DNA of 43,113 nucleotides, taken from the NCBI RefSeq assembly GCF_001186125.1, contig NW_014040480.1, positions 32,721 through 75,833 on the forward strand. The letters run 5' to 3'. Under the pieces are notes generated by a model. It did not search any database. It had not been told where the DNA came from and was given only the letters and a program-made list of their open reading frames with translations. The DNA comes from Sphaeroforma arctica JP610. Its lineage: Eukaryota. Position numbers and translations under genes: made by a program. This document shows, in pieces, positions 31,214 through 43,113 of this stretch. How positions within the stretch are numbered: position 1 is the first letter of the stretch; each line of letters starts with the position of its first letter.

Positions 31214-31489
31214 ATTTATATATATGTGTGTGTGTGCGTATGTATGTATGTTTGTATGTATGTATATATATATATTATATATATATAAAAATATTATATA
31301 TGTGTGTGTGTGTGCGTGAGTGTCTGTGTGTGTGTGTGTGCATATATATGTGTGTACGTGTATGATCTCATAATATCCAATTTCTATCATCGAACAGAGA
31401 TCGGGCGGCGGCGTTCGTCTACGGGTCTGAATATGAACATGGCTGATCTCGACGACGGACTGGACTTGAGCGAATCTGACAGTGATTAG
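24316..31489 (+). CDS. EAF: ELL-associated factor (EAF1/EAF2 family transcription elongation factor), ~371 aa
   Basis: Exons 24316-24412, 25212-25309, 25952-26053, 27198-27318, 28211-28285, 29324-29546, 30396-30639, 30821-30884, 31398-31489 total 1116 nt with consistent phases. EAF domain: [41 protein letters not shown]. It has an acidic/Ser-rich middle ([13 protein letters not shown]) and the EAF-like terminus [14 protein letters not shown]. Confidence 0.85.
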
Positions 31490-32097
31490 CGTTGCAGGTG
31501 GCCCATATAAAGACCCCCCATGTTGTTCCATTGATGGCATTGATAGAGCGTTTAGTGTCACAGGTGGCCTATATAAAGCCCCCGTGTTGTTCCATTGATG
31601 GCATTGATACAGCGTTTAGCGTCACAGGTGGCCCATATAAAGACCCTCCATGTTGTGCATTGATGGCATTGATACAGCTTTTAGCGTCTTAGAGGCCCAT
31701 ATCAAGGCCCCCCATGTTGTTCCATTGATGGCATTGATAGAGCCTTTAGCGTCACAGGTGGCCCATATAAAGACCCCTCATGTTGTTCCATTGATGGCAT
31801 TGATAGAGCCTTTAGCGTCACAGGTGGCCCATATAAAGACCCCCCATGTTGTTCCATTGATGGCATTGATACAGCGTTTAGCGTCACAGGTGTCCCATAT
31901 AAAGACCCCTTATGTTCCATTGATGGCATTGATACAGCGTTTAGCGTCACAGGTGTCCCATATAAAGACCCCTTATGTTCCATTGATGGCATTGATACAG
32001 CATTTAGCGTCACAGGTGGCCCATATAAAGACCCCCCGTGTTGTTCCATTGATGGCAGGTGACCCATATAAAGGCCCGCCATGTTGTGCATTGATGC
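31486..32097. repeat. ~66-bp tandem minisatellite (about 9 copies, some 63-65 bp) immediately 3' of the EAF stop codon
   Basis: Unit CAGGTGGCCCATATAAAGACCCCCCATGTTGTTCCATTGATGGCATTGATACAGCGTTTAGCGTCA is repeated. The ORFs over it are repetitive by-products. Confidence 0.96.
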
Positions 32098-33368
32098 AAG
32101 CTAAGCGGCACAGTTACAGTTCCCACACCTTTCATTAAACTATATATGTTGCGAATCAATCTAGCGCGTGTGTGTGTGTGTTGTACATTCACCTATCGTG
32201 TGCCTGTCATCCTGTTCATACCATCGCGTATTGAACGCGCGTCCCCGTCGCTAGGTTCGTTGCTATGCGCTGTCGTGGTCATAGACCACTTTGGTACTAG
32301 TCGCAGGTATGTTCCGTGAGTCCGTTGACAGTGGGCAACATGTGCTGAAGTCCACAGTGAAGACTGAGTTGTCGTTTGTGTAGAATGGCTTCTCTTCGGT
32401 GCTGGATCGCTCAACCTTGGGTTTCCTCGATACCATATCACTGCATCAATGCAGAGGGGCGCGACATTAGTAACTTGTCTATCCTGTGCATAGGAGCATC
32501 TCTCCCTGTCTCTACCAACCCACCCAGTCAGTCATACACACGAGCCATCACATGCTAAACGCCTACGCTCACGAGTGTCAGTAGCTTACCTACAGAACCA
32601 CCGGAGAATAACAACGTCACACGTGACACGTAACACGCAGATATACTCGCGCCATGGCCTGAGCTACAGTACTGGTTTCAGTGGCAGACATGTGGACGAC
32701 TTCGCTTAGTGTGTGTGTTTCTGGGTGACATGCACTCTATAAGACTTAGCACACACTTGTGTATGGGCTTTAAAGTACAAGCGATCGCTGTGACATGCAC
32801 GCTATACGAACTAGCACATGTTTGGGTATGGGTTTCAAAGCACCAGCGCGTGTTAAGCCTGTAGTGGCGTGGCCTGCCTGCTCAGCATGGAAGCCACTTC
32901 GTACGTGTGTTGAAGTGGCGACGTTGACGGTACACTGAGGTTACTTGCTTCTGTTCACTAGCACGTGCCTATGCAATAAACCAGGTGTACAGCTACGCAC
33001 GATTTAGTATAGGCGCCATTGTACTAGTACACGTCGGGAGGGAAAGAAACGTGTATCCCCCACACGAAAGTCGCTGGCAGGCCATACGCTAGCACACCTC
33101 TACATGAAACAAGGGTTAATGATAATGATAATAATGTGCGTGTCCATGAGGTCAAAACTTACAAGAGGCTATACAGAATATAGCTACGTACGCGATATTG
33201 TGATCGCTTACTAGGTACCTAGGCAATAGTTGTGCGTGCATGCTGTATGATATCTGCAAATGGGAAGCATAACGGCTGTGTATGCTACTGTGTTCCAATC
33301 TGCATCCTACGAACACTCCCGGTATCAGAACTGTCATACTGTACCATATGTATACTATCTTTAGTTAT

Positions 33369-34100
33369 TTATCTTCTAGCACACTTCTTCACAGGGAAGC
33401 AATACGACGGCAGTTGTAGCATATTCGGCTCAATCTCTTTCGTGTATGTGTTGGGATCGATGGTAATCTGGAACGGGTTGTCTCCAGTAAAACTAGCCCC
33501 GCCATCATACAGCTCACACAATGCACCCGTCTTCTGACTAAAAGCTACACGATCAGGTGTACTGGACTCAATCACCCACTCATCACACGCAACACCGTTG
33601 TAGTTCCTAATCCCTGCGTAATGGAAGGGAGCAGCCGTGACCCACTGTGGGTTTAGCGTACCACAGCCTTCTTGGCAGTACAAGCAGCACTCTCGTGTGT
33701 TGGGCCAGATTAGGAACCTTGACGCCCCATCCGTGCTATGGTGAATGCAGGGAGTCTCGTCGCCAGGCTTCACACGGTCACAAATGGGATTGAACTTACT
33801 AACTGGTCGGTATATGGCCTGTGTGCCATGAGCGTACGAGTATAGCATCCACCCTCTCTCACTCTGCTGTTGATTCTGATACCAAGTGTCCTCAGTGAAT
33901 GCTGCGTAGAATTCGGTCGGCCATGTGGGTTTCAGAAATGGCTTATCGCCTGCACTGTGCTCTTCTTGTGCCTGGAATGCATCAAGCACATGGTGGTTAT
34001 GTTCAGGCGCAGTTACGGCATGTGGCGATTTGAGGTTGATTGACGAAGCTATAGTTGTGCTGACGGCTGGAATAACTAATAACATATGATGTGGGTACAT
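33369..34100 (-). CDS. Intronless, Cys-rich, probably secreted or lysosomal protein (243 aa), possibly ependymin-related/LolA-like fold
   Basis: Uninterrupted non-repetitive ORF with a hydrophobic N-terminus (MLLVIPAVSTTIAS). The pattern PTWPTEF..GWMLYSY..C..C..ECC..C..GCGTLNPQWV..YAG..NGVACDEW..LPSYC recalls ependymin-like proteins of protists and plants. The family call is an inference. Confidence 0.75.
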   Translation of the reverse strand: MYPHHMLLVIPAVSTTIASSINLKSPHAVTAPEHNHHVLDAFQAQEEHSAGDKPFLKPTWPTEFYAAFTEDTWYQNQQQSERGWMLYSYAHGTQAIYRPVSKFNPICDRVKPGDETPCIHHSTDGASRFLIWPNTRECCLYCQEGCGTLNPQWVTAAPFHYAGIRNYNGVACDEWVIESSTPDRVAFSQKTGALCELYDGGASFTGDNPFQITIDPNTYTKEIEPNMLQLPSYCFPVKKCARR

Positions 34101-35369
34101 AGTGCGATGCTTGTGTGATAGCGTGCGAATGCAACGAACTCACTGCTTAAACTCGTAGACGGAGTGTGTTGACATTATCATTTATTTACACACACGTCAA
34201 GCAGATTTTAAAGCACGCCTAAGGTGATATTATGATTTGCGCTAAATAATCAGCCAAAAGCATAGCCTTCAAGAAAAAGCCCTAAAAGGCTAAAACGGTA
34301 CAATTTAGGTCTATGCTAAAATTTGGGGTTTTTTTTAAATTTCAACGAATAGATTCATTTATAAATATGCGAAGTAATGTTTATCAAAGAGCCAATAATC
34401 ATTTAGATATCGGGAGTCTATAACTCTACTTACACCTCTATATTGTGTCGGTTGTATAACCCATGTTGTACTCTAACACTGGTACCTGTTGCTCTGGACC
34501 GTTGTCTGAGATTCTAGACTGCAGCCTACTATCTCATTGGCTGAAAAATGAGCCTTCGGTCAGATACTATGGATTTCTGGCGGTATTTCTCACATATTCC
34601 ATAGTATTTTATTAGTGGCCTGACCAAATTTGTTGCACCTACAGTTGGAAAATACCATCGAATATTGCAACTTTGTACAACTTTTGCGCGTGTTTCAAGA
34701 ATCTACAACTTTCGATTGGTAGAGAACTAATGTATTTCTGGAAAAGTTCACAAACGGTTGTACAGAATCTAAAGTGAAAATCAGTAAACAAGCAAATAAT
34801 GAACACAGCACGCAAATATGTACAAAGTACGTTGCAGTTTGTTTGTGATTCACAAGCACTCGCAGGTCAGCGAATAGGTGATACGATGGCTCCCTCGCAT
34901 AGCAATCTCAAACGATATGCAAAAAAAAACTACAAGGATTTTCTGCAATACTGGCAACCATAAAAACATGTTACTCCGGTAACTAATAATCCAAGTGCAA
35001 CAAGCTTTGTAACACCATCTGACGACCTCAACAGAATCGTCTAGGACCCAACTGCGACATTGCATCGCGCATAACCGGCGATTCTACACTCTTTTGCCGA
35101 CGTTGTCGGGTACTTGGTATCAGAGGAACAACATACGCACATCGATTTCAATGAACTTTCGTACACAAACTTCAGTTACCAACAATAACCCCTCGTTCGT
35201 TTAGTGGTTTCAGATTTGAGTTGTACCACAATCTTTTGTGAAAACAGAAAACCCGCTGAATATTTTCCTAGCTGATACGAATAAGAACCTGAGCTGGTAA
35301 AGAGGAAGTTCAATGATCATATTACAACACATTACAACTGACTGATAAAGAAGCTACAATAGTCAACTG

Positions 35370-36133
35370 TGTAATAGCCGGGCCTCCACATTAGACTTTA
35401 TACTATAAACGTACTCTTAAGCAGTACGTAAACTATAACCGTACTCTTAATAGTACGAGGAACTTAAGTTTCCTAAATGGGTTTTAATGGTTTTATTGAT
35501 TAATACCTTTTCCATTTTACATATCAGATATTTGGACAAGGCCATTAAAAGGGCCCCAGTAAATACCAACATAAGAGTTGGTCTAGTTCTATAAATAGAA
35601 CTATATTTACTTTCCAAATCTATTTATATCTGAATACTTCGGTAGCGAGATGGCTCATCCGAATATAGGTTTCTAGGGACTATTAACGTTACCTAGTTGA
35701 TCCTCCGATCAACCAACCAAATGTGCCAGTCTGATGAAGGCTATGTCGGTAATTCTTGATAAATGGCAAGTTATTGGTTAATGCAATAACTAAGGACAAC
35801 AGGAGTATTTTTTTTCTATTATTTTTCTTCTAAAGATAGGATTTTATGAGTCTCTCGGATTCGCCTGAACGAAACATACCATAGTATCTAATAGAGCGAC
35901 AGCGAAACACTAAATAAAATCATTTCCGCGGATACAGTACTGAGAGGATTATATATAGGCAATGTCTCAGCCTCACAATCCCTCAGAATAATGCTGTTTT
36001 CACGAGGCATACCTAACTTTACTACAAGACTCATTTCGTTTATTTACCTTAATATTTTCACGATACTTAGAATTTACATACGCGTTTATTTATTCTAAGG
36101 CGTTAATATCGCCTTGATAGACCGAATCTTACA
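35370..36133 (+). repeat. 5' LTR (764 bp)
   Basis: TGTAATAGCCGGGCC...CGAATCTTACA aligns end to end with 41842-42605 at roughly 85-90% identity by eye. The boundary could extend 2 bp (TGTGTAA). Confidence 0.93.
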
Positions 36134-36209
36134 CATTTTTAAGTTAACAAAGGTATTAATTACTTAGACTACTTAAGCGTAAAGGTAGATTAACTACCAC
36201 AAAAAATTT

Positions 36210-38396
36210 CTTGTCCAAGCTAGTAGTCATAAGTTAAGATTAGAACCAAGAAAGACAATACTCCTAAGAAGCGTAGAGCTGAAAAGAAGAAGATAAAGAG
36301 AGAAGCCGCTAGCGCTGCCGCAGAAGCAACCGCCGCCGCTGCCGATGCGTTTATAATAGTCAACAGAACAATGCTTCAGATAAGGATGTAGCCACTCCGA
36401 TTAAGTAGACTACTCCCACTGACAGAGCCCGAGGGCCAACTATTGCCTCAACTTAAAAGCTTGCATTTACGAAGCCAAGAAGTGGGACAAGGAACACGTC
36501 TCAAGATGCCCCAACCCATTCTTCTGACGAAACTCAGAAAGAAAAGTTCCCAATTATAAGGCAGTCCCCAATTATAGGGGACAAGGACAAATCTCAGAAG
36601 AGACCTATAACGGAACCAGAAGAGAAGGCAAGCACGCATAAATGAGTTAAATACTGAAAACACTGATCTTAAGAATCAGTTAGCCATCCGTATCAAAGAC
36701 TTGACTGTTGAAAATGTAGATCGAATGTATAGATCAGGAAAACATACACAGCACTTACGCGAGCATGTTTCTCCGGGCATTACTGAAGCCCTACAGAAGT
36801 GAACAGAACGTCGACAGGCAATTACGCCCGAAGAGCGTAAAGACTCGAGCGCTACACCTGTGGCATATGAGCCAGATGTGCTCAGCGTATCTATACCTTA
36901 CGAGGTACTACCGCCAGAACTTCAGGCTAATTACTCGCCTGTTCTGACACCCGGCCGTGAGTCACCCGACCTTGAGGGTATTATAGACCCAGAGGCAGGT
37001 AAAAATACTCCGCCACCTTTACCCAATTGGGATGACAATCGTCGGAAACCAGTTAAGACTGGGTATGCTATCCAGACGCATGAATCACCCAAGATTATAA
37101 TACCAACCACTATCCGAGGGACAGAGCACCGAAAGGCCTCGATCATGGATTTTACAAGGGGTCATAAACACACCCGTGAACGTGTTAACGAAGTCGAATT
37201 TAATCGCTTCGATCGCACAGCATTGCACCAGCCCGCAGAGGATTTCCACTTTGACGAGGTGACCGAACTTAACAAATCGGTCGACGATTACACCATTAAA
37301 ATGGAAATCACCCACGATGCACATCATGCTGATGATATCTCATACTTTGCTAATATGATTGCGATTATTCAAAAGCGCATCGATCAGCTACTTCAGACCC
37401 AACGTGGACAAGACCATAGGGATAATTAGAAGTACAAGGGACAGATCAGTCGACTTAAGTCAAACTGGGATGCCAACAGCAAGCAGGTCGAGTTTATAAA
37501 CAACCATGACCTCGACACGCTAACCCGTACGCTTAATGCGTTAACGGTCAAGCTGGAGACAAATGATATCGCTCCCCAGCAATGGATCTTCGCTTTAATG
37601 CCGACGTTTGACCCTACAGGTGCAAGTTACTTGATCTTGCAGCGACACCAGCATGAGCTAGACACTTGTCGTGACTGGTCAGCTGTGTGTTGGTTGGTTA
37701 CGTCCTTATTGCGTATAGGACATGCGTAGCCCAGGACTGAGTTCAATTTTAACTGAACCAGTTGAGAACACACCCATTCAGAGTTATATTCTGAAGTTAC
37801 ATGCTGACCTGTAACGTCCAGATATAACATAGGACAAGGCATAGCGATGGTACGAGTTCCTGGTTATGCCCGTGTTCTGTAAGAACATAGGGAATATCGA
37901 CCGTGAGAGCCTGTACACCGAGTTGCGACGTAAACACGCTACTGAGGCTCGAGACAAGGGACATGAAACAAAGTTTTATCTATTCCGACTTACGTGGGAA
38001 CAGTTTTATCCACCTTTTTTCCCCACACCGAGTAACATCGAAGGGAAAAGCGACTGTTAAGAAGCCGCGGGAGCACACCAATCACGGGTACGTATCCAGG
38101 TAGACCTCAAACAAGAGACCCCAACATACACGTGCTCGTGACTCCACTCTATCCACGCGATCCACTAAACGGGCACCGCGGAGGCGAAGGACAAGGAACC
38201 TCCATTTAAAGAGATTAAGAAATGTGCCCACGCACATTGTGAGTATGACATGTACCAATTGACCCCTAACGGTTATTGGAATGGCAGGCATGCATCCACC
38301 TGTACACACTTTCTTATTAAGTGCGACAAGTGTGAGAAGACCAATAGCTATCACACTAAGTCTTGTGACAAAAAGCCCGACATTAACTTGGAGTGA
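36210..38396 (+). pseudogene. gag: Disrupted gag region
   Basis: Broken reading frames between the 5' LTR and protease: a basic/Ala-rich segment (TPKKRRAEKKKIKREAASAAAEA), ORF 36860-37429, and a Cys/His knuckle-like end (CAHAHC..HASTC, CDKCEKTNSYHTKSC). The last segment is in frame with protease up to TGA 38394-38396. The start position is approximate. Confidence 0.6.
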
Positions 38397-41300
38397 AAGT
38401 TCTACCAGGTACAATCGTTACAAAAGAAATACAACGACTCTTTAGACGAGCGTGTAATAATCCCTGTATATTACAATGGAAATAAAATCCTTGCATTGAT
38501 TGATCCTGGTTCAGAAATTTCATGTATATCCGACCGCTTTGCATTAATGAAAGACTTTGAAAGGCGAACTCAAACTACTCACCTAATCGTAGCAGATGAC
38601 AAATCTTCTAAGTGTGATACCATGGCCACAGATGTTAAAATCTCCCTGGCGGATGATAGAAATATCACTACCCAAGCTATGATAGTTAAGATGTCACAAG
38701 AGTACGACATTATAGTCGAAACAAGCGATTTACTCACTCTAGATATAACCGTAACTGGTCTACCAAATAACATAAATCCATTGAAGGATCAGTCAAACGA
38801 TAACTGTCTGAATCCATATAAGCCCCCGTCAGACGCAGTCAAGGTATTAATACCTGACTTTGCGAAAAAAAATCATAGATCTGATTATTGTTAATAAGAA
38901 GATAAAGATCACAGATTGGGCAAAATTCCGTTATAACGACGGGTATGTCAGCCTTGACTTAACCAAGGTGGACTTTACACAGTTAAAGTGCCCCTCAAGG
39001 AACTATGTATCCTGGAGACACGAGGCTGTGGTAAAAGAACAAGTTGAGAAATGGCTAGCAGATGGAGTGATAGAAATTAACTATCAACAGACGCCAGTTA
39101 ACTTGGCACTGCTAGCCGTAGACCAACATAACTCTGACGGATCGTTTAAGAAAGTCAGAGTATGTTTAGATATGAGTTCGATAAATAAATTATTGCCGAC
39201 TCATAGCTTTCACTTACCTCGTTTTAACGAGCTACTGCAAAGGATGGAAGGTGCTACAGTATTTACAACTATAGACCTTACACAAGGATACCATCAAATG
39301 CAGGTATATGAACCACATCGTAAACACTTTAGTTTTACGTGGAAAGGGGTTTTTGCACCTTTCGGGTTACACTCTTTACCAGCATTCTTCCAACAATTAA
39401 TGGAGAAAATGTTTGCAGACATGCCTAACGTGCAAGTCTATATAGATGACATAGTCGTCTTTTCTAAGACTAAAAGCAAACATGCCGCATTAGTCAGACG
39501 AGTCCTTCAGAGACTCGATGAACAAAACTTCAAGATTAACGAGAAGAAATATCACTTCGACATGAGCGAAATACAGCTCTTTGGCTACCGCATATCTGGG
39601 GACGGTATTAAAATCGACCCTGGTAAGGTAGAACACCTGTTAGATTGGCAAACACCAACTACAGGAAGAGATCTTAACAGCATGTGTGGGGTTGTAAACT
39701 TCCTTTCAGATGGAGTACCACACTTAGCTAATTACCTTAAACCTTTTGAACACTTAAGATGTCATAAAGGGAAACTAGGAGACTTGTGGACTAAAGAGTG
39801 TGATAACGCATTTAAAGCGCTCAAACACGCAGTCCAGCAAGCCCCTGTTGTACAAGGACCAGTCGATGGCGTGTCGTTTGAAATAGCAACGGACGCCTCC
39901 GACTTAGCCCTAGGAGGAGTATTATATCAGGTTATAGATAACAAACCTAGAAATATACAATTCTTTAGTCGAGCAATGAATGCTTTACAGTTGAATTACC
40001 CAACCGTTAAACAAGAGCTATTAGCCATAGTGGCAGCTCTAACACACTTCCGCGATTACTTATACGGAACATCTTCTATGCTGATGTGTGATCAGAAGTC
40101 CCTTCAATATATGAAGGAAATGAAGCCAGACTCTCAATTACTGAGCCGATGGCGTGATACAATATCAAAGTTTCATTTTGATATCAAACATCTACCAGGG
40201 ACACATAACCATTTACCGGATATGTTATCACGCTTTGTACCGGACTTTAATAAATCCGTACGTGAGTTACTAGCCACTGATTGGAAATGTATCCCCGGGT
40301 GGTTTGAACTGACTCAAAAGATATTTGGGCCACATACAGTTGACATGTTTGCTACACATCATAATGCACAACTATCAAATTACAGGACTTTAAATCATCC
40401 TTTGGGAGACGCCTTACAAATAGACCTCTCCAAACATAATGCGTGGGCTAATCCACCATGGCAGTCAATTGCCCAGCTACTAAATTATGTTCATATACAT
40501 AAAACTACCATCACGTTGTGTTGCCCATTACGGAGTAAAGATCCATGGCTCAATAAATTAATAGGCATGATACAATGCAAGCTAATATATTTAGATAGGG
40601 AAGTAGATACTTTCCTATATCAGGGTACCCGAGCCGTCCAGAAGACGCCCTGGAGACATACTATAATATGTCGTATATGTCCCATTGGAACAACCAAATG
40701 GGCCCCTTCTGAGACCTTCCTTAACAAGGTCAAAGAATCAGAGATTCCACTCTCTACCCAATTGAACGTTAAGCAATTCAAAGGCAACACAACACTTGAG
40801 GTCTGTGCACAAGAAATACAATCTACTAATGACACTACAGTTAAGAAGCGTCAGTCTCTAGCTAGGGCAGATGATTGGCCGTACCATCTTAAGTGGGTAC
40901 AAACACAAATGAACGAGTGTGCTGATCCGGATACAGGAACTACACCCGCTCACTGTTTTCATGGCAGATATAGTGAGTTACAAATACCCTTTAACAAGGA
41001 CGAACCTGATCACCATGAGTTACCATGGTTAAAGAAGGTACAACGTATTTATAACGTTGTATATCCTTGCTTGCGAGAAATACGCAATATAGCCTTATTA
41101 AAAAGGCAAAAGCGTTGAAACACTACCAAGAAGATAGCAGAGTATCAGGTCGGTGACAGAGTTAATAACCGTCAACGTAATTCCGATGCTACTGTATTAA
41201 CATCTAATTGGATAGGTCCATATATAATCTCTGTAGCAGACACTAAAAGTGGAACATACGAGGTAAATAACCCCGATGGTTCTAGTGCGCTTAATATAGG

Positions 41301-41622
41301 CACAAGTCGTATTCCGACTACAGAGTTTATACTCGCAAGAAGACACGACTATAATGCCCCTTTTGATCGTTCTGAATTTAAAGACATTATATGGAGAACG
41401 GATAAGGGAGGCAATACATACTATCGTACACGCTTTATAGACGGTACAATCGCTGAGTTGACTTCAGATGCTTTCGATAATCAAGACTATTTAAAAGACT
41501 TTAATCGAAAATGGCGTAAACGCCTGCATAAGTCACAAGCTGAAAAAGATAGCATGTTTCCATTGTCTGAAGGTTTATCCCGAGCTTTAATGCTCACCCT
41601 TCATATGTGCTTAAGACACTGA
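38397..41622 (+). pseudogene. pol: pol: aspartic protease, reverse transcriptase, RNase H, Dam-like methyltransferase, truncated integrase with GPY/F and chromodomain-like tail
   Basis: PR: ILALIDPGSEISCIS (~38487-38531), then a frameshift near 38860. RT: KVRVCLDMSSIN, IDLTQGYHQ, APFGL, YIDD (39439-39450). RNase H: ATDASD, QELLAIV, CDQKSL, NHLPDMLSR. MTase spans 40276-40683. IN tail: DDWPYHL..TGTTP..HGR. An in-frame TGA lies at 41116-41118, and the frame continues YQVGDRV..WIGPY to a stop at 41622. Confidence 0.92.
40276..40683 (+). CDS. DNA N6-adenine (Dam-like/DIRS-type) methyltransferase domain within pol
   Basis: Sequence DWK..FGPHTVDMFATHHNAQL..DALQID..AWANPPW..LL..ITLCCP..PW. It shows a SAM-binding-type DxFA motif at 40342 and catalytic motif IV NPPW at 40450-40461. 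Confidence 0.85.
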
Positions 41623-41841: not shown

Positions 41842-42605
41842 TGTAATAGCCGGGCCTCCCCATTAGACTCTATGTTATAAACGTACTCTTAAGCAGTACG
41901 TATACTAAAACGTACTCTTAATAGTACAAGGAACTTAAGTTTTCTAAATGGTCTTTAATGGTTTTATTAATTAATACCTTTTCCATTTTACATATCAGAT
42001 ATTTGGACAAGGCCATTAAAAGGCCCCAGTAAAATACCAACATAAGAGTTGGTCTAGTTCTATTAATAGAACTATATTTACTTTCCAACTTTATGTATAT
42101 CTTAATACTTCGGTAGCGAGATGACTCAACCGAATATAAGTTTCTGGGGATTATTAACGTTACCTAGTTGATCCTCCGATCAACCAACCAGATGTGCCAG
42201 TCTGATGAAGGCTAAGTCAGTAATTCTTGACAAGTGGCAAGTTATTGGTTAAGACAATAACTAAGGACATCAAGAATAATTTTTATCTATTTATATTTTT
42301 TCTAATGATACGATTTTATGAGTCTCTCAGATTTGCCCCCACGAAACATACCATAGCTTCTAATAGAGCGACAATGAAACACTAAATAAAATCCCTTTGG
42401 CGGAAACAGTTCTCAGAGGATTATATATAGGCAATGTCTCAGCCTCACAATCGAACAGAGCAATGATGTTTTCACGAGGCATACCTACCTTTACTAAAAG
42501 TTTCATTTTGTTTATTTACTTTAAAGTTTTCACGATACTTAGAATTTAACTACGCGTTTATTTATTGTATGGGGTTATTATCGCCTTGATAGATCGAATC
42601 TTACA
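41842..42605 (+). repeat. 3' LTR (764 bp)
   Basis: Direct repeat of 35370-36133 with TGTAA...TTACA termini. Confidence 0.93.
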
Positions 42606-43113
42606 AATCTGTATGTGTATAATTACATATTGCCCTAGTATATATCTGACTCGTTTTTATCTTTTGTGTTCAATCTGTATGTGTGTCATTACATATTGGC
42701 CTAGTATATATCTGACTCGTTTTTATCCGTTGTGTTGAATCTGTATGTGTGTTATTGCATATTGGCCTAGTACATATCTGACTCGGTTTTATCCGTCGTG
42801 TTGAATCTGTATGTGTATTATTACATATTGGTCTAGTATATATCTGACTCATTTTTATCCGCTGTGTTGAATCTGTATGTGTGTCATTACATATTGGTCT
42901 AGTATATATCTGACTTGTTTTTATCCGTGGTGTTGAATCTGTATGTGTATTATTACATATTGGCCTAGTACATATCTGACTTGTTTTTATTCGTTGTGTT
43001 GAATCTGTATGTGTATTATTACATATTGGCCTAGTACATATCTGACTCGTTTCTATACGTTGTGTTGAATCTGTATGTGTGTCATCACATATTGGTCTAG
43101 TATATATCTGACT
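42606..43113. repeat. 66-bp tandem satellite, at least 7.5 copies, running off the window end
   Basis: Unit AATCTGTATGTGTATTATTACATATTGGCCTAGTATATATCTGACTCGTTTTTATCCGTTGTGTTG starts at 42606, 42672, 42738 and so on. Confidence 0.97.

What the first reader, a model, noticed from the sequence alone, without database searches (positions are those of the whole stretch)
40276..40683. Ty3/Gypsy retrotransposon encoding an in-frame Dam-like DNA amino-methyltransferase with an intact NPPW catalytic motif
Seen: directly after RNase H (..NHLPDMLSRF) the pol frame continues, with no stop, into a ~135-aa domain containing GPHTVDMFAT..N, DALQID, AWANPPW and CCP..PW. Established: this motif set characterises phage Dam-like N6-adenine methyltransferases. 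An RT-RH-MT arrangement is typical of tyrosine-recombinase DIRS elements, not of integrase-type LTR elements. This element has direct TG..CA LTRs, an aspartic protease, a PPT and integrase remnants, so it is Gypsy rather than DIRS. The full [DNS]PP[YFW] motif is retained. Inference: this lineage may methylate its own cDNA or target DNA (6mA, possibly 4mC), for example to mark itself as active chromatin or evade host silencing. This copy is dead, so any activity would belong to intact relatives. Methyltransferase capture by retroelements has precedent, so novelty must be tested.
Basis: partly seen in the sequence, partly recalled or inferred. Interest (0 to 1): 0.9.

Follow-up and report, generated by a model that had tools for sequence, protein, structure and literature searches.

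The report
Dead Gypsy retrotransposon carrying adenine methyltransferase
This is a broken copy of a Gypsy-type jumping gene whose enzyme string includes a Dam-like methyltransferase domain that intact copies likely use to put methyl-adenine on their own newly copied DNA; the design is real and conserved, but a 2026 preprint already described it.

Summary
A 7.2-kb element has two 764-bp direct LTRs (35370-36133, 41842-42605). Its pol frame runs RT, RNase H, then a Dam-like domain with NPPW (Pfam Dam E 1e-6; confident methyltransferase fold). The RT is Ty3/Gypsy-type. RT and Dam both group with Abeoforma whisleri proteins, and Sphaeroforma arctica has close relatives. All 10 full-length relatives checked have the order RT-RNase H-Dam-integrase, and the domain is as conserved as the RT. 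This is the Ichthyosporean DAM-LTR lineage of bioRxiv 10.64898/2026.05.21.726589, which reports 6mA and expression enrichment but no activity in E. coli. This scan also found the architecture on other genomes.

This copy is dead. It has stops and a frameshift, and it has lost the integrase zinc finger and catalytic core at 40866/40867, where other copies carry extra sequence.

Two side leads are absent from the preprint's main text. The closest solved structure is the RNA cap methyltransferase PCIF1/CAPAM, narrowly ahead of T4 Dam. There is also a 14-bp LTR-leader duplex resembling self-priming, though it sits off the usual position. Enzyme activity and substrate remain unshown. Already known; low interest.

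The parts
35370..36133 (+). 5' LTR, 764 bp, TGTAA..TTACA
   Evidence: contigs of three laid runs leave the window at 36133 into many different flanks (table 7)
36149..36162 (+). leader stretch complementary to LTR positions 127-140; possible tRNA-independent priming structure, 15 nt after the LTR end
36218..38400 (+). decayed gag-like region with stops and a Cys/His-rich end (gag identity inferred from position; no Pfam hit on 36803-37426)
38397..38894 (+). aspartic protease, out of frame with RT in this copy
   Evidence: Pfam below cut-off; 44-47% identical to P0003/P0004
39028..39615 (+). reverse transcriptase (YIDD at 39439-39450), with a 5-residue gap against relatives
39871..40233 (+). 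RNase H
   Evidence: PF17917 E 9.5e-27
40273..40683 (+). Dam-like N6-adenine methyltransferase domain; D-x-F-A motif 40342-40353, NPPW 40450-40461
40866..40867 (+). in-frame junction where about 235-300 codons (linker end, integrase zinc finger, catalytic core) are missing
40867..41622 (+). integrase C-terminal part with GPY-like motif (41209), interrupted by a stop at 41116-41118
   Evidence: 50-53% identical to P0003/P0004
41830..41838 (+). polypurine-tract-like run, 3 nt before the 3' LTR
41842..42605 (+). 3' LTR, 764 bp, 89.8% identical to the 5' LTR

Best explanation
This is a dead, integrase-deleted copy of a Ty3/Gypsy LTR retrotransposon family whose pol polyprotein carries a conserved Dam-like domain between RNase H and integrase, and in intact copies that domain likely adds N6-methyladenine to the element's own reverse-transcription intermediates, which would help new insertions stay transcribed. 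Shown here: the anatomy, the fold, conservation across the family, placement with ichthyosporean proteins, and the decay of this copy. Inferred: the domain is packaged with RT and integrase because it is part of the same polyprotein; it uses SAM and the NPPW loop on adenine in the RNA:DNA hybrid or cDNA; host AMT1 then maintains 6mA at ApT after integration. The last two steps are the preprint's model and have only correlative support. I put the identification at about 0.93 and the mechanism at about 0.55.
For: Domain: Pfam Dam, PHROG 111, model pLDDT 91.6, fold matches PCIF1/CAPAM Z 9.7 (rmsd 3.5, 138 aligned) and T4 Dam Z 8.0 (rmsd 2.5, 103 aligned). Family trait: 10 of 10 full-length members of the clade have RT>RH>Dam>INT; 17 of 19 clade rows have NPPW, 1 NPPF, 1 CPPW. 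Dam identity to P0003/P0004 is 67/62%, against RT 65/61% and the following linker 40/36%. Among 27 listed variant sites in 40281-40702, the 14 that split family contigs are 11 synonymous and 3 not, against 0.26 expected (binomial p 5e-5). The 13 nearly private to this copy are 1 and 12 (Fisher p 3e-4). Placement: Ty3 RT is the best PDB match (E 3e-56). The RT falls in an all-DAM-LTR clade with Abeoforma P0005 (100/98; SH-aLRT 99). The Dam clade includes Abeoforma P0005, P0243 and P0244 (SH-aLRT 94). S. arctica proteins P0253/P0254 match the domain's end. The preprint (main text read) reports more 6mA-marked copies and more expression for DAM-LTRs than for other LTRs in A. whisleri and S. arctica, and AMT1 in 9 of 13 host species.
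Against: No activity has been shown: the preprint's expression in dam-minus E. coli gave no 6mA. Iyer et al. judged DIRS1 domains likely inactive (PMC4738411, passages). P0004, a close relative with an open 1400-aa frame, has CPPW. Three chromodomain-bearing relatives have FPPV. 6mA enrichment could follow from transcription rather than cause it. The variant-site test uses 27 sites from the 40 rows shown of 149, and contig depth is not a copy count. An AU test did not reject placing the window's RT group next to the DIRS-like rows (p 0.20), so RT alone does not fix its place inside Gypsy.
Confidence: 0.55

Rival explanations
1. The domain is an active N6-adenine methyltransferase that acts mainly on the element's RNA, PCIF1-style, on the cap-adjacent or internal adenosines of the transcript or of a self-primer. 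6mA on genomic copies would then be secondary to transcription.
For: PCIF1/CAPAM is the top match in both fold searches (Foldseek E 3e-5; VIA Z 9.7), and ranks 2-7 are RNA adenine methyltransferases. 13 of 66 alignment members also hit the PCIF1 Pfam model at E<=0.05. Iyer et al. place DIRS1 domains in the PCIF1 clade. [quoted passage not shown]
Against: The structural margin is thin: Z 9.7 against 8.0-8.5 for the next hits, at 14% identity. 58 of 66 members hit Dam. The domain lacks the helical domain that helps CAPAM bind the cap (PMC8287941, passages). A shared fold shows no substrate.
Confidence: 0.18
2. The domain is kept as a largely non-catalytic nucleic-acid- or SAM-binding module, or as a structural part of the polyprotein.
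For: Negative E. coli assay; the view of Iyer et al.; CPPW in P0004 and FPPV/FPPF in other relatives with long open frames.
Against: 123 of 163 Dam-bearing proteins fetched have NPPW, NPPF or NPPY, and 18 of 19 in this clade keep the Asn, which is hard to explain without catalysis.
Confidence: 0.2
3. The domain is a one-off DIRS fragment nested in a Gypsy copy, or the element is a DIRS.
For: RT-RH-Dam is the DIRS order, and many Dam hits are DIRS-like. This copy lacks an integrase core and a target-site duplication. The AU test left a position next to DIRS open.
Against: Direct LTRs, a protease, an integrase C-terminus and a purine tract are present. The DIRS-like rows form one side of a branch without the window in 100% of bootstrap trees. 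Intact relatives carry Dam at the same place. Contigs of four runs run through the RNase H-Dam-linker stretch at depth like the rest of the element.
Confidence: 0.02
4. Side question: the integrase-less form is an amplified non-autonomous subfamily that keeps RT, RNase H and Dam.
For: The deletion is in frame; summed depth in the bin holding the junction drops but is not zero.
Against: All 4 laid runs have contigs leaving at 40866 and entering at 40867, and none of the 32 listed pieces bridges the junction (about 11,000 pieces not shown). The differences private to this copy look neutral.
Confidence: 0.1

Closest known systems
Ichthyosporean DAM-LTR lineage (Fernandez-Moreno et al., bioRxiv 10.64898/2026.05.21.726589; Pirum gemmata, Abeoforma whisleri, Sphaeroforma arctica)
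   Same: Ty3/Gypsy organisation, Dam domain in pol with the NPP triplet, no Pfam chromodomain, RT and Dam grouping with A. whisleri proteins, close relatives in S. arctica.
   Different: This copy is dead and lacks the integrase core. I could not check whether this exact family is in the preprint's tables, because its supplements are closed.
DIRS1-type tyrosine-recombinase retrotransposons with a methyltransferase domain
   Same: RT-RNase H-Dam order; homologous domain with D-x-F-A and NPP[WF] motifs.
   Different: RT clade, direct LTRs, protease and DDE integrase instead of a tyrosine recombinase.
PCIF1/CAPAM cap-specific adenosine N6-methyltransferase
   Same: Best solved-structure match (Z 9.7, rmsd 3.5, 138 aligned); NPPF/NPPW catalytic loop.
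   Different: 14% identity; no WW or helical domain; embedded in a retrotransposon polyprotein.
Phage Dam family PF05869 / PHROG 111, and T4 Dam
   Same: Profile hits; T4 Dam Z 8.0, rmsd 2.5, 103 aligned.
   Different: No DNA methylation shown for the eukaryotic domains; target sequence unknown.

Membership tests
Ty3/Gypsy LTR retrotransposon | direct LTRs with TG..CA ends | tested here: met
   764 bp, TGTAA..TTACA, 89.8%
Ty3/Gypsy LTR retrotransposon | order PR-RT-RH-INT | tested here: met
   complete in relatives; here with the integrase C-terminal part only
Ty3/Gypsy LTR retrotransposon | RT groups with Ty3/Gypsy | tested here: met
   100/100 split from DIRS-like rows, Ty3 best PDB hit; AU test of a position next to DIRS not rejected, p 0.20
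Ty3/Gypsy LTR retrotransposon | target-site duplication at this insertion | tested here: inconclusive
   flanks do not match at 4-6 bp; the right flank is a tandem array and the copy is old, so rearrangement is possible
Ty3/Gypsy LTR retrotransposon | primer-binding site | tested here: inconclusive
   no TGG after the LTR; a 14-nt complement to the LTR starts 15 nt downstream, outside the 0-5 nt rule in PMC6317226
Ichthyosporean DAM-LTR | Dam domain with NPP triplet inside pol | tested here: met
Ichthyosporean DAM-LTR | Dam domain groups with ichthyosporean elements | tested here: met
   19-row clade with three A. whisleri proteins, SH-aLRT 94, quick tree, not starred; RT clade 100/98
Ichthyosporean DAM-LTR | no chromodomain | tested here: met
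   no Chromo hit in the window's C-terminal frame or in P0003-P0006, P0008
Ichthyosporean DAM-LTR | host is an ichthyosporean | tested here: inconclusive
   inferred from named relatives only; no host genome is held and no host marker gene was tested
Ichthyosporean DAM-LTR | 6mA and expression enrichment over copies | not testable with these tools
   reported in the preprint
DIRS1-like element | inverted or split terminal repeats, no protease or DDE integrase, RT in the DIRS clade | tested here: not met
Active N6-adenine methyltransferase | SAM-dependent methyl transfer | not testable with these tools
   fold and motifs fit; the one published assay was negative

The most novel reading that the evidence does not exclude
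Retrotransposon 'Dam' domains are PCIF1-like enzymes whose true substrate is RNA or the RNA:DNA hybrid inside the particle. In this lineage they would methylate adenines of the transcript's 5' end, which folds back onto the leader as a self-primer-like duplex. That would tie an element-encoded methyltransferase to priming or RNA fate rather than to host chromatin, and explain the failed E. coli DNA assay.
Probability: 0.1. Interest if true: 0.65.

Novelty: already known. Interest (0 to 1): 0.17.

Why it matters
As a class, DAM-LTR elements suggest that transposons can write an active-chromatin mark on themselves, the reverse of the usual silencing by methylation. That idea is in print as a preprint, and this copy is one more dead member. 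What remains open is the enzyme's substrate. The structural link to PCIF1 points to assays on RNA and RNA:DNA hybrids, and the intact relatives P0003 (NPPW) and P0004 (CPPW) are a natural pair for such a test.

Tried and rejected
No whole genome is held, so no copy census or proper dN/dS was possible. The region-limited homolog search on the Dam domain gave 0 of 501 candidates at E<=0.001. PDB sequence searches with the domain gave no hit, and with the 66-row profile none better than E 0.68. No RNA holder was listed among the sequencing runs. No tRNA gene in the window. A search for the missing integrase core across the whole window found only the junction edge; none of 431 tblastn hits of fetched proteins lay outside the element. 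Target-site duplications of 4-6 bp were not found under either LTR start. The careful mixture-model RT tree did not finish, so one search is the quick tree (7 rows skipped for lack of an anchor; 18 of 37 DIRS-like and 31 of 178 Gypsy rows chosen). One search is a careful LG+G4 tree on 31 rows. DIRS labels rest on RT+Dam, no integrase and recalled RNase H motifs, not on a recombinase. Neither tree had a prokaryotic outgroup, so the direction of Dam transfer was not tested. Earlier-finding look-ups by sequence, by place and by 'Sphaeroforma...PCIF1' were empty.

Full report
Observation. Pfam Dam matches the isolated stretch at E 1.1e-6, just over the family cut-off (28.8 vs 28.1 bits), and scores under the cut-off within the whole frame. 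PHROG 111 also matches. An AlphaFold model from a 66-row alignment has pLDDT 91.6. Foldseek ranks PCIF1/CAPAM first (E 3e-5). VIA-align against 48,161 chains gives CAPAM Z 9.7 (rmsd 3.5, 138 aligned), DIMT1/Erm/KsgA 8.0-8.5 and T4 Dam 8.0 (rmsd 2.5, 103 aligned). The domain is a real N6-adenine methyltransferase fold.

The element. Two direct 764-bp LTRs at 35370-36133 and 41842-42605 begin TGTAA and end TTACA, at 89.8% identity, K2P 0.105. Between them lie a decayed gag-like region, a protease out of frame with RT, RT-RNase H-Dam, an integrase C-terminal part with a stop at 41116-41118, and a short purine tract. No target-site duplication was found, and a 66-bp array abuts the right end.

The integrase. 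The closest intact relatives, P0003 (66%, 1376 aa) and P0004 (61%, 1400 aa), align to the window up to about 40840 and again from about 40867. P0004 residues 836-1071, which hold the zinc finger and the rve core, have no counterpart anywhere in the window. In all 4 runs laid, contigs leave the window at 40866 and enter at 40867, the entering letters resembling the integrase end of the relatives. None of the 32 listed pieces bridges the junction, though most pieces were not shown. The deletion is therefore most likely particular to this copy or a minority.

A family trait under selection. 10 of 10 full-length clade members have RT>RH>Dam>INT; of 19 clade rows, 17 have NPPW, 1 NPPF and 1 CPPW. 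Of 390 proteins fetched, 163 (two from the window) match my Dam profile and 123 of these have NPP[WFY]. Identity to P0003/P0004 is 67/62% in Dam, 65/61% in RT, 67/70% in RNase H and 40/36% in the linker. Summed contig depth over the element is some hundreds of times that of the flanks, and contigs leave the LTR end into many different flanks, so the family is multi-copy; depth is not a copy number. One search showed 40 of 149 variant rows, of which 27 lie in 40281-40702. Sites that split the family are 11 synonymous of 14, against 0.26 expected (p 5e-5). Sites nearly private to this copy are 1 of 13. This fits purifying selection in active lineages and neutral decay here, on a selected and small sample.

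Placement. Ty3 RT is the best solved relative. In RT trees the window sits with P0003/P0004 inside a clade made only of Dam-bearing LTR elements that includes Abeoforma whisleri P0005 (SH-aLRT 99 among 63 rows; 100/98 among 31 rows). The DIRS-like rows are one side of a branch in all bootstrap trees. Against this, an AU test did not reject moving the window's group next to the DIRS rows (p 0.20), so the RT alone does not fix its position within Gypsy; the anatomy settles the class. In the Dam tree the window is in a 19-row clade with three A. whisleri proteins (SH-aLRT 94). P0253 and P0254, which match the end of the domain, are Sphaeroforma arctica proteins. The host is likely an ichthyosporean; I did not test this with host genes.

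What is known. bioRxiv 10.64898/2026.05.21.726589 (whole main text read; figures and supplements not seen) reports Dam domains in LTR retrotransposons and defines five lineages. One is an Ichthyosporean DAM-LTR lineage in Pirum, Abeoforma and Sphaeroforma, without chromodomain and with ordinary Ty3/Gypsy layout. It finds more 6mA-marked copies and more expression than in other LTRs, and association with host AMT1. It finds no 6mA on expression in dam-minus E. coli, and proposes methylation of RNA-DNA intermediates followed by AMT1 maintenance. PMC4738411 (passages) places DIRS1 domains in the PCIF1 clade and calls them likely inactive. PMC9178792 (abstract) gives PCIF1's preference ssRNA > hybrid > ssDNA > dsDNA. 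PMC8287941 (passages) describes CAPAM's NPPF loop and cap-binding helical domain. PMC6317226 and PMC4600332 (passages) describe self-priming and the 0-5 nt rule. The preprint's main text has no occurrence of 'PCIF1', 'CAPAM', 'self-prim' or 'non-autonomous'. A search for PCIF1 + DIRS + methyltransferase + retrotransposon returned only PMC4738411. The closed supplements may bear on this and on whether this family was analysed. Earlier notes of this scan (150 findings hold the words, at least 4 genomes) report the same architecture on other DNA; I had found the preprint before reading them.

How it most likely works. In an intact copy the polyprotein would bring the Dam domain into the particle with RT and integrase (inferred from the fusion). 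There it likely methylates adenine on the hybrid or cDNA, and host AMT1 would keep 6mA on the new insertion, favouring transcription (0.55). Rivals: a mainly RNA-directed, PCIF1-like enzyme (0.18), or a largely non-catalytic module (0.2). A nested fragment or DIRS identity is nearly excluded (0.02). This copy cannot transpose by itself.

Verdict. The PCIF1 structural link and the leader-LTR duplex are leads for substrate tests, not findings. Interest 0.17.

Noticed in passing
window 35497-35510 / 41968-41981 and 36149-36162: The leader carries a 14-nt perfect complement to the 3' LTR (12 nt plus a G-U pair in the 5' LTR). 1 and 4 of 1000 shuffles reach it, and 140 internal control windows reach at most 11 nt. 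The pairing closes the predicted fold. It resembles Tf1-type self-priming but begins 15 nt after the LTR.
   Followed up: partly
P0007, P0011, P0269, P0050, P0128, P0022, P0130, P0132 (unnamed records): Mostly chromodomain-bearing RT-RH-Dam-INT proteins whose RTs lie near fungal chromoviruses such as Absidia glauca, outside the ichthyosporean clade. Three have FPPV in place of NPPW. They may be DAM-LTR lineages beyond the preprint's five; hosts unknown.
   Followed up: partly
P0257, P0321: Proteins over 2100 aa with an endonuclease domain, then Dam, then RT, RNase H and an integrase zinc finger. They may match the preprint's Euglena group.
   Followed up: no
P0004: Close relative with an open 1400-aa frame has CPPW in place of NPPW.
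   Followed up: partly
window 33369-34139, minus strand: Intronless 256-codon frame for an ependymin/DUF8395-like protein, likely secreted (Atlas score 0.96; no Pfam hit).
   Followed up: partly
window 42606-43113; 31486-32101; 6014-about 7000: A 66-bp tandem array begins exactly at the 3' LTR end and has no counterpart on the left; a second 63-66-bp array and a 20-bp array lie elsewhere.
   Followed up: no
window 35370-36133 vs 41842-42605: LTR identity is 92-94% in the first 400 columns and 86% in the next 300, which may mean recombination between copies.
   Followed up: no
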